From Phallusia mammillata (taxonomy: Eukaryota): a DNA stretch of 64,000 nt. The stretch spans positions 4,402,001 to 4,466,000 of the forward strand of contig OZ281498.1 in NCBI GenBank assembly GCA_965637545.1, written 5' to 3'. A program made the position numbers. Positions 48,001-57,000 of this stretch are shown piece by piece. Every line of letters begins with the position of its first letter. Position 1 is the stretch's first letter.

Positions 48001-51000
48001 GTTTGAGACATCTTGCACCAATAAACAGGAATCGTCACTTTGGATTGTGCGCCATATCAGCGTGAAACGTGGGGATTTTTGCAAGACAATGATGGATTGC
48101 ATTTTCTCATAAAAAATACATTCCTAGCCAAAGCATATTCGTAAAAAATCACACAATTTATGTGTTTTTCCGTATACCTGCTGTATTAATTTGGGCACAA
48201 AATGGCGTCCACGGGGCTCTACCGCTAGACCTACCATACGTACCTCTTTGGAGGACATTTCCTCCTTTCTAACGAAAAACAAGTTGGCCTACAAGGACAA
48301 TAAAAAATACCCAAATGTCATCGTTTTGAATTTTCTGTATTTACTAAATACGAAATTATTGTGTCTTTAACATCGGCCAAAGAGTGCGAGTTGTGGTCAT
48401 TGTTGATAGAAATTCACAATTTATAGTAAGTTAAACTTCATCCAAATTGGACTATAATAATTGACTGCGTGAAATTCGTGAAATATAGTGTGCCTTTATT
48501 TTCTTTGGGCACGAAAGTAAGTATTTAGGCTATATTCTTTGCCGGGAATGTGCCCTCCTTTTTGGTTGTGAAAATATGGTAGGCCTATCTACCGCGTAAC
48601 AATGGGTTGGACTACTTGTACTTGTGTTTTACATGTACTCTGGTTTGTGAGTATGATGTGCTCCGGAGTTGCAACAAGGACAAATAAAAGTGATTCACGC
48701 CTAATGATTGGTGATATCCTTCAGGTGTAAGAAGCATTCTTCGATAAAATCACCTTATTATTTGCCAGGCAGCAGTGGCGGAACCAGGAGGGGTAGAGGG
48801 CGATCCACCCACCCATAGGGTCGATTCCCGGGGTGGCAGGGGTGGCAGGGGTGGCAGCCTCCCCACTAAAAATCTCTGGTGTGGCAGCCCTTGTAAAATA
48901 GCTATGCTGCCACCCCAGAAATTGCCTGGCCGTATTTATATTCGTGCATTACAGATATGCGTTTCTTTCATTCACATGCCCTCTTTCGAATGGTCGGTAT
49001 ATTTTGAGCATGTGCAAAGCAAGCTATGTGAAATCCTTAACCCATTTTGCGCTACTCGTTTCAGTGATTTTCGCCAAGTTTGCTTCTCAAAAGCAAGCCT
49101 GAACAAGACTTTTGACATAACGATTGCAATTTTCACGTTTTTGTGTATTATGGATGTTAATTGGTAGTTGGGGATTATATTGTTACGTAAGTGTTCCGTT
49201 TTCATGTGTGGAAAATGGAATTGTAGTGACCACTCATGTACCTAAATTTCGTGTGGGAACTGCAATGCCGATTCCATAGTTTTGCAAAAAATTGAAACGT
49301 TTGCGTTATGTGACCTTTTAAACCACACTACTTCTCACGGATTATTATTAACGCTACCCAGCACGAGATACACTTTTGCTGCCAGTAACCAGTATGCTGC
49401 TGTGAGTACATTACCAACATATTGTGACATTACAACTCCACAACTAGACGGGCGGTTTGTGACGTGACTTTCATAGGTGTTACATCCAAGTTAACCAATA
49501 TTGCGTACATAGTAATGTGCATGTTTATTCCCTTCCAATAACCGCGAACACCATCTACAAACCCTAACGTGTACCCCAGTGTGTTTTGATCACGTAAGGA
49601 ACCACTTGAACAAATTTCGCCACCCCACAAAAGAAAATTTATGCTAAAAAACGACGCCTATGCACCCACCCCCTCTGAGCATGCTGGCGACATTGCAGAT
49701 TTAAAGAAGACTTAATTAAATCCGACTTCTAGTCGACGAATTTTTTGATATCTATGGGCCAACGTTTGGCCAGACGGAATATGGAAGAAAAACAAACCGG
49801 TTTGTTGACTGTTCGCAGTTGTACGTTGATGAGGCTATTGCAATAAAGCAGTTTTATACCGGTCACGTCTAAAACTGCGGGCCCACTTGGATCACTTGGC
49901 CCGCTTGGCCCAGCACTTTATGCAATTGAAAAACTGCGGGCCCACTATATCCAGTGCTTCATGCTTGTCGCGTCTCTTGCAAGTATAAAAACTGCGGGCC
50001 CACAATATCCATTGCTTGGCCCGTCTCTCGTAGGGAAAAACGGGCCAAGTGCTGGGCCAAGCGGGCCAAGTGAGCCAAGCGGGCCCGCAGTTTTAGACGT
50101 GACCCGTTTTATACCATTCGAGACAGGCAGACAGCTAACTGACTGGCAACCTACTTACTACTCATTTTCGCTTTGTAACCAATTACCAACGGTCATAGCT
50201 GCATGATAAGTTCTAGCTTTGTTTGTAAACCGTTTCGTTACTTCTTTGCAAAACGTGTTTATAATATATGCAATGTACGTGTTCGTTGTCAGCCTGTGTG
50301 TTTTAGGAGGTTTCAGGAATAAAACGTTGTTATGAATATGATTATGTGGTGTATCATTTATTGGAATGTGCTATCTAGTATTTGTTTGGCATACAACTGC
50401 AGTTTAAAACTACAAAAAGATGAATATTATTGCACCAATGATGCTGAACAAGCAAACTGCCTTGAATTCCTTGCCCACCAACAGCATTTAAAATCTAACA
50501 CAAAAGCGAATGGTATTTCATCATCCTCTTGGTTTATACTTTGCTACTTTGCTGTTTCAAGTGAATTTGCTACAAGCCAGTGCAGAATACAACTTCCTGC
50601 TGGACCTGTAAAATGTACTACAGATAATAGTACTCCCAGCTCAATTAAGAGAAACTGTACAACTGTTCTAATGTACTTTTCTAAGAATGCAATATTTGAA
50701 GTAAAGAATGATGTAGATAAAACTGTATATAGTAAGTTTTAAGTTTTTTTTGGATTTGCCTAATTTTAGTGCAATTAGTGTGTAGTGCATTACAATTTTT
50801 ATTTATCCTAGGCACATTTAGGACAGTTTTTCTTAAACTTTTTCTTCACTCCTACCTTCCTATGTATAAAAATAACAACAATAGCCGAGGCTAACCCACT
50901 GCCACAAGTAATGGTAGTCAATATTTAAAAACAACTGAAGTATGAGTGGGTTCCAGTAAAAAAAGACTGGTGGTAATAGGTATAAACAATATAGTTAAAT

Positions 51001-54000: not shown

Positions 54001-57000
54001 AAATTCATGACTAATTTTTTTCAGTCCATCTGCGTGGAGTGGTGTGACAATTGCACTATTGGTGGTTGGTTGTATTGGTATTGTCCTTGGCCTTTTGTTC
54101 TGCACACATAGAGTCAAGAAACAGCTTAAATACTTTAAACGCGCCAATGACATAGACGAAAGTGACAGTGTCATCAAACATTTGGTAAGTTTCTCAACAA
54201 CAAAATTTGGGCAGTTATGTATCCTTTACACAGGATTTGTTCAGGACAAAGTCATTTCATCTCCTGATGAGTTTGGAGTCCATAATATTTCAGAACCTTT
54301 AGATGAAGTGGAGTGACTTGCTGGGATAAAAATACGATCAGTGTTAAAATAGTTTACGCAACCAATCAGGTGCTCTTTTAAAAAGGTTTATGCCCTTTTC
54401 ATGTGTTTTACCTATCTGCAGTTCTTTTCAGTCCATTGGTTTCAAAACATTCTTGCCATTGAGTGATTGATTCTTTCCTCAATTCACAAGAGATGTCGTT
54501 TACCACATTTCCCCAGTACTAAGTATTACCTGTTCGTCAATGACGTCATAGCATTTCCTAGTACTGTGCTGCGCCAGGCGCTGGAAACTTGTATACCTAC
54601 AGTAATCCGTTTCGTGTGCTTAGGATTGTTTGTGTTTAAAGCGGTGCCACGATGTTTTTTGTCCTGATTTACCATGGTGTTTTTTATTACTTCGTACAAA
54701 AACTTTCATTTTTAACAAAAAGGGCACATGCAAACAAATAAGTACAAACGTTTTTCACTGAATTAAATTAGACACTGAAATTTCGTGTTTAAGTAAACAA
54801 GTCAAATTGCTCGGTTCACCTAGTTCAGTGGTTCCCAAACTTTTTTCTTTTAAGGCGCATTTTAGAAAAAACAAAAATTATTTGGCACACTTCGAACATT
54901 TGAATAAAAAATATATTGACAAAGGCACTAACTATGAGGTCATAAAGCCGCTATACAGGTCACTCTCATAGTTAAATAGCCTAGTTGAACATCTCAGAGA
55001 CGTGGAGCATGTTGGCCTAGTGGTCTAAGCACCTGGTACTACTACTCTACTTGATTGATTTTAATTTCAATATTTTTTGCGGCACACCTAATGACATCTC
55101 GCGGCACACTGGTGCATAGTTTGGGAACCACTGACCTACTTTGTGTGGTCCATTTATGTTAAATACGGCTGGTAACCAAACGATACAGAAATAGTTTTAC
55201 GTCTGTTGGGACAGAATTCAACGGCTAAAAAGGAGCGTAAAAAAGCTTTTTTTGTCAGTAAGGGACACAATAAAGTACCACTTTTGGTCAAGATTATATT
55301 TCAAAAAACTGGAAAACATAGGCCCTTTTGTTAAGCCGTTTAACTTCGACTGTGTTTTGTTATGCGTTTCAGTATAAACAAAGTTTCATTGATCCCTATT
55401 GTCCCTTGTTATACTACATTCGACTTATTGTGCATCCCCATAAAAGCACACAAGAACAACATAAACAACAACAGTTTTTTGATTTATCTTTTGCCTGTAG
55501 TCACGCGTCAGTTGCCCTCGACGGGTGATCTTGTGGGATGTGTTTTTCGCGATCGCCGATTTCTTCCATTAATTTCAGTCGGGAGATTCAGAGAAGGTGA
55601 CAGCTGATCAATTCTGAGGCAACAAACACAGATTTATGTCAAGCAGAAGTAACCAACCTTGACAATTTCAAGCGTGCGGTTTGCGATTAGGGTTTGGTCC
55701 CCCGAAAATCCCGGGATTTAAAGCTTAAAAGATTTTTTTGAATCCCCATCCTGGGATTATTTTTGTTGAAATACCGCGATTAGAACCTAGCTTATATTAC
55801 TTAATGGGGATGCGTGTTTGTTCAATTGAAGAAAACTTTATATTGTGGCAGCTGCGGCATACAGTTAAACTTCAAGTTGCGCGGTAAACTGAGGAGATAA
55901 AAAACGATGGTTGCATTGCGGTGTCTACTACCATTGCATTAAACCGCTTGTTGGTTCGTGCACCCGACCTGCGCTGTTCGTGTTCTATATGTTTCTACAT
56001 TCGCATATTTCCAACCTTAGGGTTTTCACGACCGTTTCCTTATCCTCTGTCACTGCAATGTAGTGTTTTTGTACTAAAGTAGCCTACCTACTATATTATG
56101 CTATGTTCCGTTTCTTTATGCGCAGAAAATAAATTTATACAATGCAAATTATACATTGGTTTGATACTTTATGAAGAAAACTATAATACAAGTCATTTTC
56201 TTACCTTTCGGAAAGTACTTGGATCTGCTGGACAAGTTGAAACACTGTATCATGCATGCGAGCTTGAGTTTTTAAATACGCACGGCATGAGCATCCTCCA
56301 GGTATTGAACTGAGCGTGGTAGCCTAAATATGTTTTGTGTAAAGTGTGTAAGCTAAGGAGCCGTAAAAAAAAGATTATTTCCTTGAAATCTAAAATAGCA
56401 CTCTTTGGTGGTTTCTAAGGTCTGGTGCGAGCCGCAAAATAAGTAGTTGGGAGCCGCGTTTGAGAATCACTGCGTTAGAGCCTCGTGGAGCCATTTGTGT
56501 CCATAACCAGCGGGTATAAGGAAAAACACATATATTGTCTGATTTGTACAAACATGGTGAGCTTTGACGCAAACTTTGTTCGGCAAATTGAATGAAACTT
56601 TTGGGTCCTAACAATTTGGCTGATCAAATATCGCATTAAAGCCCTCCAGTTTGACAATATAGCATGTGTTTTTCCCCAAACCCGCTGTGTTACTTTGGAC
56701 ACAAAATGGCTCTATGGCGTAACAATTGAATGGACAACTTGTGTTTTATATTGATTTTAGGGTAGTGTAAACTTACGGTTCCCGTTATCGAATTGCTTTT
56801 GCTATTGCCTGGGTATCGGGCAAACACTGTGACGTTGTAGGTGGTTTCAGGAACGAGCTCTTCAAGCCTACCACAATCACTGATTAAATATTGAGTTAAC
56901 GCAACCATGCACATGCTACTTACAATAAAAAGCTGTTTATGACGCCTTGCATTGTCAGTGGTACTGAACCAGGCGAGGAGTATGTTACAACATAACTAGA

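What the first reader, a model, noticed from the sequence alone, without database searches (positions are those of the whole stretch)
50332..54302. Tandem pair of orphan Cys-patterned type-I membrane proteins
Seen: two head-to-tail genes about 485 bp apart with the same four-exon layout (phases 1,2,0; TM exon 160 nt in both). They share an ectodomain pattern YNCS..C..C...(L/M)C(Y/F)F.V...F...QC.I.L.AGPV.C.......(R/S)NCT.VL, then (E/D)KC...(V/M)ADR..A...PFSN, a TM helix and a short tail, yet are otherwise highly diverged. I recognise no known domain. Inference: members of an undescribed, fast-evolving cell-surface receptor/ligand family. Divergent tandem surface proteins of this kind are candidates for immune or allorecognition roles, but nothing here shows function.
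Basis: partly seen in the sequence, partly recalled or inferred. Interest (0 to 1): 0.65.

Follow-up and report, generated by a model that had tools for sequence, protein, structure and literature searches.

The report
Tandem ascidian-only membrane glycoprotein gene pair
Two neighbouring sea-squirt genes encode single-pass membrane glycoproteins whose eight-cysteine outer domain matches no described domain or solved fold, but the family is shared by several ascidians and its function is still unknown.

Summary
Two head-to-tail four-exon genes lie at 50332-52344 (g1) and 52829-54316 (g2), with GT..AG introns, phases 1,2,0 and a 160-nt transmembrane exon in both. Their first exons are homologous: 32% identity, E 9e-14.

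The window is Phallusia mammillata. It joins g1 exon 3 to an internal acceptor in g2 exon 1.

The genes are not orphans. An exhaustive HMMER search gave 10 clusters; the 4 named ones are all ascidian and all "uncharacterized".

No known domain or fold was detected by Pfam, PDB sequence or profile searches, Foldseek or the ESM Atlas. AlphaFold2 gives a confident alpha/beta ectodomain.

g2 is the conserved orthologue. g1 is a very diverged copy that keeps all seven exon-1 cysteines.

Best reading: two separate type I membrane glycoproteins that act by ectodomain binding. An immune or allorecognition role has no support. Interest is moderate to low.

The parts
50332..50731 (+). g1 exon 1: ATG, leader peptide (MNMIMWCIIYWNVLSSICLA) and most of the ectodomain, with 7 family cysteines and 3 N-X-S/T sequons; ends in phase 1
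   Evidence: 131 of 133 residues are identical to P0001 1-133. BLASTP to g2 exon 1 gives E 9e-14.
51800..51926 (+). g1 exon 2: end of the ectodomain (EKC, VADR, PFSNW motifs; 1 sequon); ends in phase 2
   Evidence: 41 of 41 residues are identical to P0001 135-175. tblastn to g2 exon 2 gives E 0.011. No BLASTP hit to family members of other species at E<=10.
51998..52157 (+). g1 exon 3 (160 nt): juxtamembrane stretch, transmembrane helix, basic GRKRMK stop-transfer and start of the tail; ends in phase 0
   Evidence: KD19 maximum is 2.73. 53 of 53 residues are identical to P0001 177-229.
52261..52344 (+). g1 exon 4 (predicted): 27 codons of acidic, Ser-rich tail plus TGA
   Evidence: Supported only by the open frame and a good acceptor, ttttgtgtgcag|G. 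It is absent from P0001 and has no BLASTP match to tails of relatives. This is the one junction without outside support.
52345..52828 (+). 484-nt spacer between the g1 stop and the g2 ATG: ATTAAA at 52418 and 52443, TATATAA at 52794 (35 nt before the g2 ATG)
   Evidence: motif scan only; consensus matches are not proof of use.
52829..53246 (+). g2 exon 1: ATG, leader peptide (MCFCTKFIVWLVVICNAIPFTRG) and most of the ectodomain, with 7 family cysteines and 3 sequons; ends in phase 1
   Evidence: Relatives reach E 4.8e-38 to 1.1e-07. Residues 33-139 are identical to P0001 230-336. P0002 aligns from 52895, upstream of the fused junction.
52917..52925 (+). Internal 3' splice site (ttttgcag|GAG) inside g2 exon 1. 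The public record P0001 uses it to join g1 exon 3 to g2. The downstream exon starts at 52925, in frame 0 of g2.
53373..53502 (+). g2 exon 2: eighth conserved cysteine and the Y.ADRYL..FS..W motif; 1 sequon; ends in phase 2
   Evidence: 42 of 42 residues are identical to P0001 338-379. BLASTP to Clavelina P0004 155-193 gives 44% identity, E 9e-11, and to Ciona P0017 E 5.5e-09.
54025..54184 (+). g2 exon 3 (160 nt): transmembrane helix, basic HRVKKQLKYFKR cluster and start of the tail
   Evidence: KD19 maximum is 2.87. 53 of 53 residues are identical to P0001 381-433. BLASTP to Ciona P0017 gives E 1.9e-06.
54245..54316 (+). g2 exon 4: 23 codons of acidic tail plus TGA (54314-54316)
   Evidence: 23 of 23 residues are identical to P0001 434-456.

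Best explanation
The locus holds two separate, tandemly duplicated genes of Phallusia mammillata. They belong to an uncharacterised protein family found so far only in ascidians.

Each gene encodes a type I single-pass membrane glycoprotein. By exon arithmetic g1 is about 256 aa and g2 about 259 aa. Each protein has three parts:
- a cleaved leader peptide;
- an ectodomain of about 155-160 residues that folds as one compact alpha/beta module. It is probably held by four disulfides (8 conserved Cys: 7 from exon 1, 1 from exon 2) and carries 4 N-glycosylation sequons;
- one transmembrane helix, then a basic stop-transfer cluster and a tail of about 50 residues. The tail is acidic and Ser-rich and has no catalytic domain.

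g2 is the conserved orthologue of the single-unit proteins of Ciona and Clavelina. g1 is a strongly diverged duplicate. It has kept the cysteine and core skeleton but replaced most surface residues.

Inferred mechanism (not shown): with no enzymatic part, the proteins act by binding. The ectodomain would engage a ligand or partner protein at the cell surface or in the lumen of the secretory/endocytic pathway. The tail would couple to sorting or adaptor proteins. g1 would have a changed binding specificity.

I read the public 456-aa fused protein as a read-through or conjoined product (or model), not as the working form.
For: Shown:
- Gene structure and paralogy.
- Species identity and junction support: P0001 is 98-100% identical exon by exon and contains 5 of 6 junctions.
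- Family: 10 of 1.84 billion representatives at E<=1e-3. The 4 named clusters are Phallusia, Clavelina, Ciona intestinalis and C. savignyi, all 'uncharacterized', from the orders Phlebobranchia and Aplousobranchia.
- Every full-length relative seen is single-unit with its own Met and leader: P0004 282 aa, P0017 263 aa, P0006 241 aa.
- 12 columns are invariant across all 14 aligned sequences, including 7 Cys.
- g1 keeps 12 of the 14 columns that are invariant in the 10 non-g1 rows, at only 21-31% overall identity.
- AlphaFold2 of Clavelina P0004 gives pLDDT blocks of 80-93 over residues 41-190, with a beta-alpha-beta-alpha-4beta-2alpha-2beta order followed by a long helix. g2 exon 1 alone gives the same order of elements.

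For two genes rather than one:
- The fused junction removes g2 residues 1-32, including the invariant first cysteine C26.
- That stretch is conserved with P0002, whose alignment starts at 52895.
- Both helices are followed by basic clusters. By the positive-inside rule (established knowledge) a two-helix fusion would be topologically frustrated.
- ATTAAA and TATATAA motifs lie in the spacer.
Against: - The only outside record (P0001) shows the fused form. No record shows g1 exon 4, the g2 ATG or its leader in a transcript.
- I could not see how P0001 was derived. By recall, not by any search, these Phallusia entries are translations of submitted mRNAs.
- g1 exons 2-4 have no significant match to relatives of other species, so g1 could be drifting.
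- The leader peptides and topology are inferred from hydropathy and charge, not from a dedicated predictor.
- The structure models rest on shallow alignments (14 and 13 rows), with mean pLDDT 72-74.
- The binding mechanism is pure inference. No ligand, expression or localisation data were available.
Confidence: 0.7

Rival explanations
1. One conjoined gene. The locus makes the 456-aa two-unit protein of the public record: g1 exons 1-3 are spliced to an internal acceptor of g2 exon 1, and the 'two genes' are halves of one internally duplicated gene.
For: P0001 is exactly that product. It is in frame, 98-100% identical to the window, and joins a real GT donor (52158) to a real AG acceptor (exon start 52925). 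Ciona records (P0016, P0005) also carry foreign N-terminal extensions in front of the family's leader, so joined models recur in this family.
Against: - The fusion deletes the invariant first cysteine of unit 2.
- It would place unit 2, with its cysteines and sequons, on the cytosolic side, or else defy the basic clusters after both helices (inference from the positive-inside rule).
- All other full-length relatives are single-unit.
- The deleted g2 stretch, with a Met and hydrophobic leader, is conserved in P0002.
Confidence: 0.15
2. g1 is a decaying or functionless duplicate. It is transcribed only as read-through baggage, and g2 alone carries the family's function.
For: The g1 end branch is 7.2 changes per column against a median of 0.8. 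g1 exons 2-4 have no BLASTP match to relatives at E<=10, apart from a transmembrane-type hit of exon 3 at E 0.014. No g1-like protein other than P0001 was found. g1 keeps only 3 of the 10 columns that are >=70% conserved. Both of the 2 residue differences from P0001 lie in g1 exon 1.
Against: - The frame is intact over four exons with canonical splice sites.
- All 7 exon-1 cysteines and 12 of 14 invariant columns are kept despite 21-31% identity.
- The leader, sequons, transmembrane helix and basic cluster are kept.
- The EKC/ADR/PFSN motifs of exon 2 are kept.
This pattern indicates selection on the fold.
Confidence: 0.12
3. One reading: a fast-evolving surface receptor/ligand pair used in immune or allorecognition (or gamete recognition).
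For: The predicted topology is cell-surface type. There is a tandem duplication with one very diverged copy. The family is lineage-restricted.
Against: - No Ig, EGF, sushi, lectin or other domain typical of known tunicate recognition genes was found (the list of typical domains is recalled).
- g2 is a conserved orthologue. Among the named records I saw one gene in Clavelina and C. savignyi; Ciona carries two locus names, likely the same gene.
- Only 2 of 452 residues differ between two Phallusia haplotypes.
- No expression data were available.
Confidence: 0.07
4. The pair is an SL-resolved operon of the ascidian type. Both genes are transcribed as one precursor, and P0001 is a cis-spliced by-product of it.
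For: The genes share orientation and lie 484 nt apart from stop to ATG. A record spans both. Polycistronic units exist in Ciona (PMC1488885, passages read).
Against: Ciona operons mostly lack any intercistronic DNA (PMC1488885). Here the only poly(A)-signal-like motifs (52418, 52443) lie about 390-410 nt before the g2 ATG, and a TATA-like motif sits 35 nt before it. No SL or poly(A) data were available to me.
Confidence: 0.1

Closest known systems
Uncharacterised single-pass proteins of other ascidians: Ciona intestinalis LOC100185600 / LOC144742434 / F6YHB7 (P0005, P0015-P0017), Ciona savignyi H2YCB4 (P0006), Clavelina lepadiformis LOC143449413 (P0004, P0013, P0014)
   Same: - The ectodomain is homologous: g2 exon 1 gives E 1.6e-20, 5.0e-18 and 1.5e-13.
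- The same 7 exon-1 cysteines and W/F/G core are present.
- The second-exon motif is the same (g2 exon 2, E 9e-11 to 3e-07).
- The order is the same: leader, ectodomain, transmembrane helix, basic cluster, short tail.
   Different: These relatives are single-unit records. A tandem second copy was not seen for them, but their genomic context could not be examined. g1 has no closer counterpart among them (21-28% identity). None has a described function, so membership names the family but explains nothing.
Public Phallusia mammillata record CAB3262670.1 / A0A6F9DI12, 'uncharacterized protein LOC100181657' (P0001, 456 aa)
   Same: It is the same locus. Exon by exon, 131 of 133 residues match in g1 exon 1 and 100% match in the other six matched exons.
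   Different: It joins g1 exons 1-3 to g2 from residue 33 onward. It therefore skips g1 exon 4 and g2's Met, leader and first conserved cysteine. I read the locus as two genes.
Small type I accessory or co-receptor glycoproteins encoded by tandem paralogues, such as CD8A/CD8B, or RAMPs (recalled analogies; leads only)
   Same: Works-like only. They share a leader, one compact disulfide-bonded ectodomain near the membrane, one helix and a short non-catalytic tail, and they act by binding partners.
   Different: No sequence or fold relation was found: Pfam gave none and Foldseek against the PDB gave 0 hits at E<=1e-3. The predicted fold is mixed alpha/beta, neither Ig nor a three-helix bundle. 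Pairing of g1 with g2 was not tested.

Membership tests
Uncharacterised ascidian single-pass family (Ciona LOC100185600 / Clavelina LOC143449413 / C. savignyi H2YCB4) | Significant sequence similarity of the exon-1 ectodomain | tested here: met
   g2 exon 1 gives E 4.8e-38 to 1.1e-07 to 9 non-self clusters. g1 exon 1 gives E 9e-14 to g2. tblastn of P0016, P0002 and P0003 onto the g1 exon gives E 6e-07, 1.7e-07 and 2.6e-06.
Uncharacterised ascidian single-pass family | Seven invariant cysteines plus the A, W, F, F, G core in the exon-1 domain | tested here: met
   12 invariant columns across 14 sequences, including both window genes. g1 keeps 12 of 14 and g2 keeps 14 of 15 columns that are invariant in the other rows.
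Uncharacterised ascidian single-pass family | Second-exon segment with the eighth cysteine and the Y.A(D/Q)RYL...FS..W motif | tested here: met
   This row is for g2: BLASTP gives E 9e-11 (Clavelina) to 3e-07 (C. savignyi) at the homologous place.
Uncharacterised ascidian single-pass family | The same second-exon segment in g1 | tested here: inconclusive
   The EKC, VADR and PFSNW motifs are visible, and tblastn to g2 exon 2 gives E 0.011. There is no BLASTP hit to relatives of other species at E<=10.
Uncharacterised ascidian single-pass family | Architecture: leader, ectodomain, one transmembrane helix, basic cluster, short tail | tested here: met
   Hydropathy maxima and the positions of Cys and sequons. 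The model of P0004 shows the ectodomain followed by a long helix at 200-255. No dedicated signal-peptide or topology predictor was available.
Any Pfam-A domain family | hmmscan score at or above the family's gathering cut-off | tested here: not met
   7 of 8 exon peptides gave 0 families at E<=10. The g2 transmembrane exon gave 4 sub-threshold matches, the best at 16.6 bits against a cut-off of 28. Across the 14 family members no family was hit by more than 1 member. P0001 and P0016 gave 0.
Known tunicate recognition or immune surface genes (Botryllus FuHC, fester/uncle fester; VCBPs): definition recalled, not from a call | Ig, EGF, sushi/CCP or chitin-binding domains | tested here: not met
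   No such Pfam match in any exon or family member.
Known tunicate recognition or immune surface genes | Extreme allelic polymorphism | tested here: inconclusive
   Only two haplotypes could be compared: 2 of 452 aligned residues differ between the window and P0001.
SL-resolved operon of the Ciona type (PMC1488885) | Same orientation, close neighbours | tested here: met
   Both genes are on the + strand, with 484 nt from stop to ATG.
SL-resolved operon of the Ciona type (PMC1488885) | Downstream cistron SL-trans-spliced, with the poly(A) site of the upstream gene abutting the acceptor | not testable with these tools
   No transcript-end data were available. Motif positions do not favour it but prove nothing.

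The most novel reading that the evidence does not exclude
The ectodomain is a truly new extracellular fold confined to enterogone ascidians (Phlebobranchia and Aplousobranchia). In Phallusia the conserved g2 and the rapidly remodelled g1, which are co-transcribed, would work together as a heteromeric surface receptor. Its variable partner (g1) would tune specificity, for instance in self/non-self or gamete recognition.
Probability: 0.08. Interest if true: 0.65.

Novelty: new variant of a known kind. Interest (0 to 1): 0.35.

Why it matters
Tunicates are the sister group of vertebrates, and Phallusia and Ciona are embryological models. A conserved, ascidian-only membrane glycoprotein whose confidently predicted ectodomain matches no solved fold is a reasonable candidate for a lineage-specific cell-surface function and for a new Pfam family.

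The locus also gives a concrete annotation correction. The public 456-aa record most likely merges two genes.

Beyond that the finding is ordinary. Lineage-restricted uncharacterised single-pass proteins and tandem duplicates are common, and nothing here points to a particular biology.

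Tried and rejected
Searches that found nothing:
- Pfam on each exon peptide, on all 14 aligned members and on P0001 and P0016: nothing usable.
- PDB by sequence with g2 exon 1 and g1 exon 1 and with the family profile A2: 0 hits at E<=10.
- Foldseek of the P0004 model against the PDB: 0 hits at E<=1e-3. The best was TRPML3 6ayg_A (E 0.07, prob 0.14, TMq 0.14). Recurrent CYTH/thiamine-triphosphatase and Mediator Med18/20 chains appeared at E 0.16-0.64 with TMq <=0.13. 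I judged these to be topology noise.
- Foldseek of the g2 exon-1 model against the PDB: best E 0.81.
- Foldseek of the P0004 model against viral BFVD: 0 hits at E<=1e-3. The top rows are generic viral type I glycoproteins.
- ESM Atlas with g1 exon 1: no usable hit. With P0017 the best score was 0.82 to PRIMA1, below the 0.9 line, and only 5 of the ten best shared a family, so I dropped it.
- Profile search with A1 in the word-indexed collection found only 3 proteins, all already known to me. g1 exon 1 searched 'near' found none, and 'longer' found only P0001.
- Rfam over 49000-55500: 0.

Ideas dropped:
- By eye, the g1 exon-4 tail resembled the Ciona tail. BLASTP did not support this (no hit at E<=10).
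- Synteny with the N-terminal extension of Ciona P0016: no counterpart in the window.
- Timing of the duplication is unresolved. g1+g2 as sisters is not rejected (p-AU 0.473), and g1+g2+P0002 has support of only 81/50.

Literature:
- Accession and locus-name searches returned 0 papers.
- A search for the origin of the Phallusia record returned 0 papers.
Expression tables there may bear on the expression question.

Not run:
- Complex prediction, because I make no binding claim between g1 and g2.
- Genome contigs, which holds only bacteria and archaea.
- Metagenome contigs and viral contigs, which were closed. The genomic context of the six unnamed relatives therefore stayed unchecked.

Full report
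**What is in the sequence.** Reading 49800-54800 and translating exon by exon confirms two head-to-tail genes on the + strand.
- g1 exons: 50332-50731, 51800-51926, 51998-52157, 52261-52344.
- g2 exons: 52829-53246, 53373-53502, 54025-54184, 54245-54316.

All introns are GT..AG, the phases are 1,2,0 in both genes, and the third exon is 160 nt in both. Everything else is as described, including the quoted motifs. The exon-1 peptides are 32% identical with BLASTP E 9e-14. The exon-2 peptides find each other reciprocally in the window at E about 0.01, although BLASTP of the two short peptides alone found nothing. There is no third copy in the 64 kb. The window has no N and 33-46% G+C.

**How the window's genes were handled.** Every search and fold of the window's own genes was made exon by exon. 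The full-length view comes from public proteins of the family.

**Organism and outside support.** g1 exon 1 retrieves one protein, P0001, at E 1.8e-89. It is nr CAB3262670.1 / UniRef A0A6F9DI12, 'uncharacterized protein LOC100181657', from Phallusia mammillata. So the window is from this ascidian, not from human.

Exon by exon, P0001 matches as follows:
- g1 exon 1: 131 of 133 residues;
- g1 exons 2 and 3: 41 of 41 and 53 of 53;
- g2 exon 1, residues 33-139: 107 of 107;
- g2 exons 2, 3 and 4: 42 of 42, 53 of 53 and 23 of 23.

P0001 is, however, a fusion. After g1 exon 3 (...LELQL) it continues at ENKNFC, from an internal acceptor ttttgcag|GAG whose exon starts at 52925, in frame. It skips g1 exon 4 and also g2's Met, leader and first conserved cysteine. 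How the record was made was not visible to me. By recall only, these Phallusia entries are translations of submitted mRNAs.

**The family.** An exhaustive HMMER search of 1.84 billion representatives with g2 exon 1 gave 10 proteins at E<=1e-3, 7 at E<=1e-10 and 2 at E<=1e-30. Four of the ten clusters carry names, all 'uncharacterized':
- Phallusia mammillata;
- Clavelina lepadiformis LOC143449413;
- Ciona intestinalis LOC100185600 / LOC144742434 / F6YHB7;
- Ciona savignyi H2YCB4.

The other six come from unnamed contigs, which I did not trace. The named species belong to Phlebobranchia and Aplousobranchia. No named hit came from other tunicates or other animals. A single-sequence search does not prove absence.

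The full-length relatives are single-unit proteins of 241-282 aa with their own Met and leader. Fourteen aligned sequences share 12 invariant columns, seven of them cysteines. The exon-1-only ORFs among the relatives end just after the domain in G-K, S-K or G-R, as do the window's own read-through frames. That is what a G|GTAAG-type donor translates to, so the phase-1 intron position appears conserved. This is an inference from protein sequences.

**No known domain or fold.**
- Pfam gave nothing for 7 of 8 exon peptides and only sub-threshold helix noise for the g2 transmembrane exon. It gave nothing consistent across the 14 members.
- PDB sequences gave 0 hits with either exon 1 or with the family profile.
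- The ESM Atlas gave no usable hit for g1 exon 1. For Ciona P0017 it gave only 0.82 to PRIMA1, below the tool's 0.9 line.

AlphaFold2 of Clavelina P0004 with the 14-row alignment gave mean pLDDT 72.4, with ten-residue blocks of 80-93 over residues 41-190. The order of elements is beta, long alpha, beta, short alpha, four beta, two alpha, two beta, followed by a long helix that contains the membrane span. g2 exon 1 without its leader gave the same order at mean pLDDT 74.

Foldseek found 0 PDB matches at E<=1e-3 for either model. The best were E 0.07 with TMq 0.14 and E 0.81. It also found none in the viral library. On the evidence available the ectodomain is an undescribed module. The alignments are shallow, and no AlphaFold-DB or HHpred comparison could be run.

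**g1 versus g2.** g2 behaves as the orthologue of the family.
- It is 25-52% identical to relatives over the domain.
- Its exons 2 and 3 match Clavelina and Ciona at E 9e-11 to 4e-04.

g1 is far more diverged.
- It is 21-31% identical to everything, and closest to g2.
- Its end branch is 7.2 against a median of 0.8.
- No other g1-like protein was found.
- Its exons 2 and 4 have no match to relatives of other species; exon 3 has only a transmembrane-type hit at E 0.014.

Yet g1 keeps 12 of the 14 columns that are invariant in the other ten rows, including all seven cysteines. It also has an intact four-exon frame, a leader, sequons, a helix and a basic cluster. That pattern fits a duplicate whose fold is kept while its surface has been replaced. 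When the duplication happened is unresolved.

**One gene or two.** I favour two genes, for these reasons:
- The fused form removes the invariant first cysteine of unit 2.
- The removed stretch is coding-conserved with P0002, whose alignment starts at 52895.
- P0002 and all full-length relatives begin with a Met and a hydrophobic leader.
- Both helices are followed by basic clusters, GRKRMK and HRVKKQLKYFKR. In a two-helix protein these cannot both face the cytosol (positive-inside rule, established knowledge).
- The spacer carries ATTAAA at 52418 and 52443 and TATATAA 35 nt before the g2 ATG. These are motif matches only.

Against this, no outside record shows g1 exon 4 or the g2 start. An ascidian-type operon is a further possibility. 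Ciona has polycistronic units, mostly without intercistronic DNA (PMC1488885, passages around 'intercistronic' read; found through the listing). I could test neither trans-splicing nor poly(A) sites.

**How it most likely works.** Shown: the architecture and the conservation pattern. Inferred: after leader cleavage before YNCS, a glycosylated ectodomain held by four disulfides sits close to the membrane. A tail of about 50 residues, acidic and Ser-rich and without any catalytic domain, faces the cytosol.

Such a protein can only act by binding. It could be a receptor, a co-receptor or an accessory subunit, at the cell surface or in the secretory/endocytic lumen. g1 would have an altered specificity. 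I put roughly even odds on this general mechanism and cannot name a partner. Nothing supports an immune or allorecognition role. No Ig, EGF or sushi domain was found, and only 2 of 452 residues differ between the two haplotypes seen.

**Novelty and verdict.** The sequences are already public as 'uncharacterized'. The family has no Pfam entry, and no paper was found by locus name or accession (0 papers each; supplements were not searchable). This is an ordinary architecture carrying an undescribed ectodomain, restricted as far as seen to ascidians. It yields a useful annotation correction: the 456-aa record probably merges two genes. Interest is moderate to low.

**Left unchecked.**
- AlphaFold-DB and HHpred comparisons.
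- Any expression, polymorphism or transcript-end data.
- The g1 exon 3/4 junction.

Noticed in passing
window 49851-50114: MITE-like element 218 nt upstream of the g1 ATG. It has 68-nt inverted arms that are 91% complementary, three direct copies of AAAACTGCGGGCCCAC... spaced 58-59 nt apart (4 matches against 0.02 expected), and GGGCCAAGC x3.6 at 50054-50085. No other copy lies in the window.
   Followed up: partly
window 46270-46992 (+): Single open frame encoding an NDUFB8 (complex I ASHI subunit) homologue: Pfam PF05821, E 2.6e-30. It appears intronless over the matched part and lies about 3.3 kb upstream of g1.
   Followed up: partly
window 9639-10025 (-) and 13849-14664 (-): Open frames with rhodopsin-type 7TM receptor matches: PF00001, E 8.6e-06 (25.8 bits, below the 30.5 cut-off) and 7.3e-08 (32.6 bits, above it). 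These are probably exons of one or two GPCR genes.
   Followed up: no
window 54185-54244: g2 intron 3 is only 60 nt, in frame and free of stops. The frame 54011-54316 is continuous, so retaining the intron would insert 20 residues in the tail. P0001 shows it spliced out.
   Followed up: partly
P0016 and P0005 (Ciona intestinalis LOC100185600 isoforms): These records carry a Cys-rich N-terminal extension joined in front of the family's own leader peptide. Merged or conjoined models therefore occur at the Ciona locus too. The extension has no Pfam match at E<=0.01 and no counterpart in the window.
   Followed up: partly
window 58409-58780 (-), 109-690 (-), 28851-29291 (+): Weak, sub-threshold fibronectin type III (E 0.0084) and MFS (E 0.00086) matches. 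The frame at 28851-29291 starts with a leader-like MAKIIGAFCFAALLVATAYG, ends Gly-rich and has no Pfam match.
   Followed up: no
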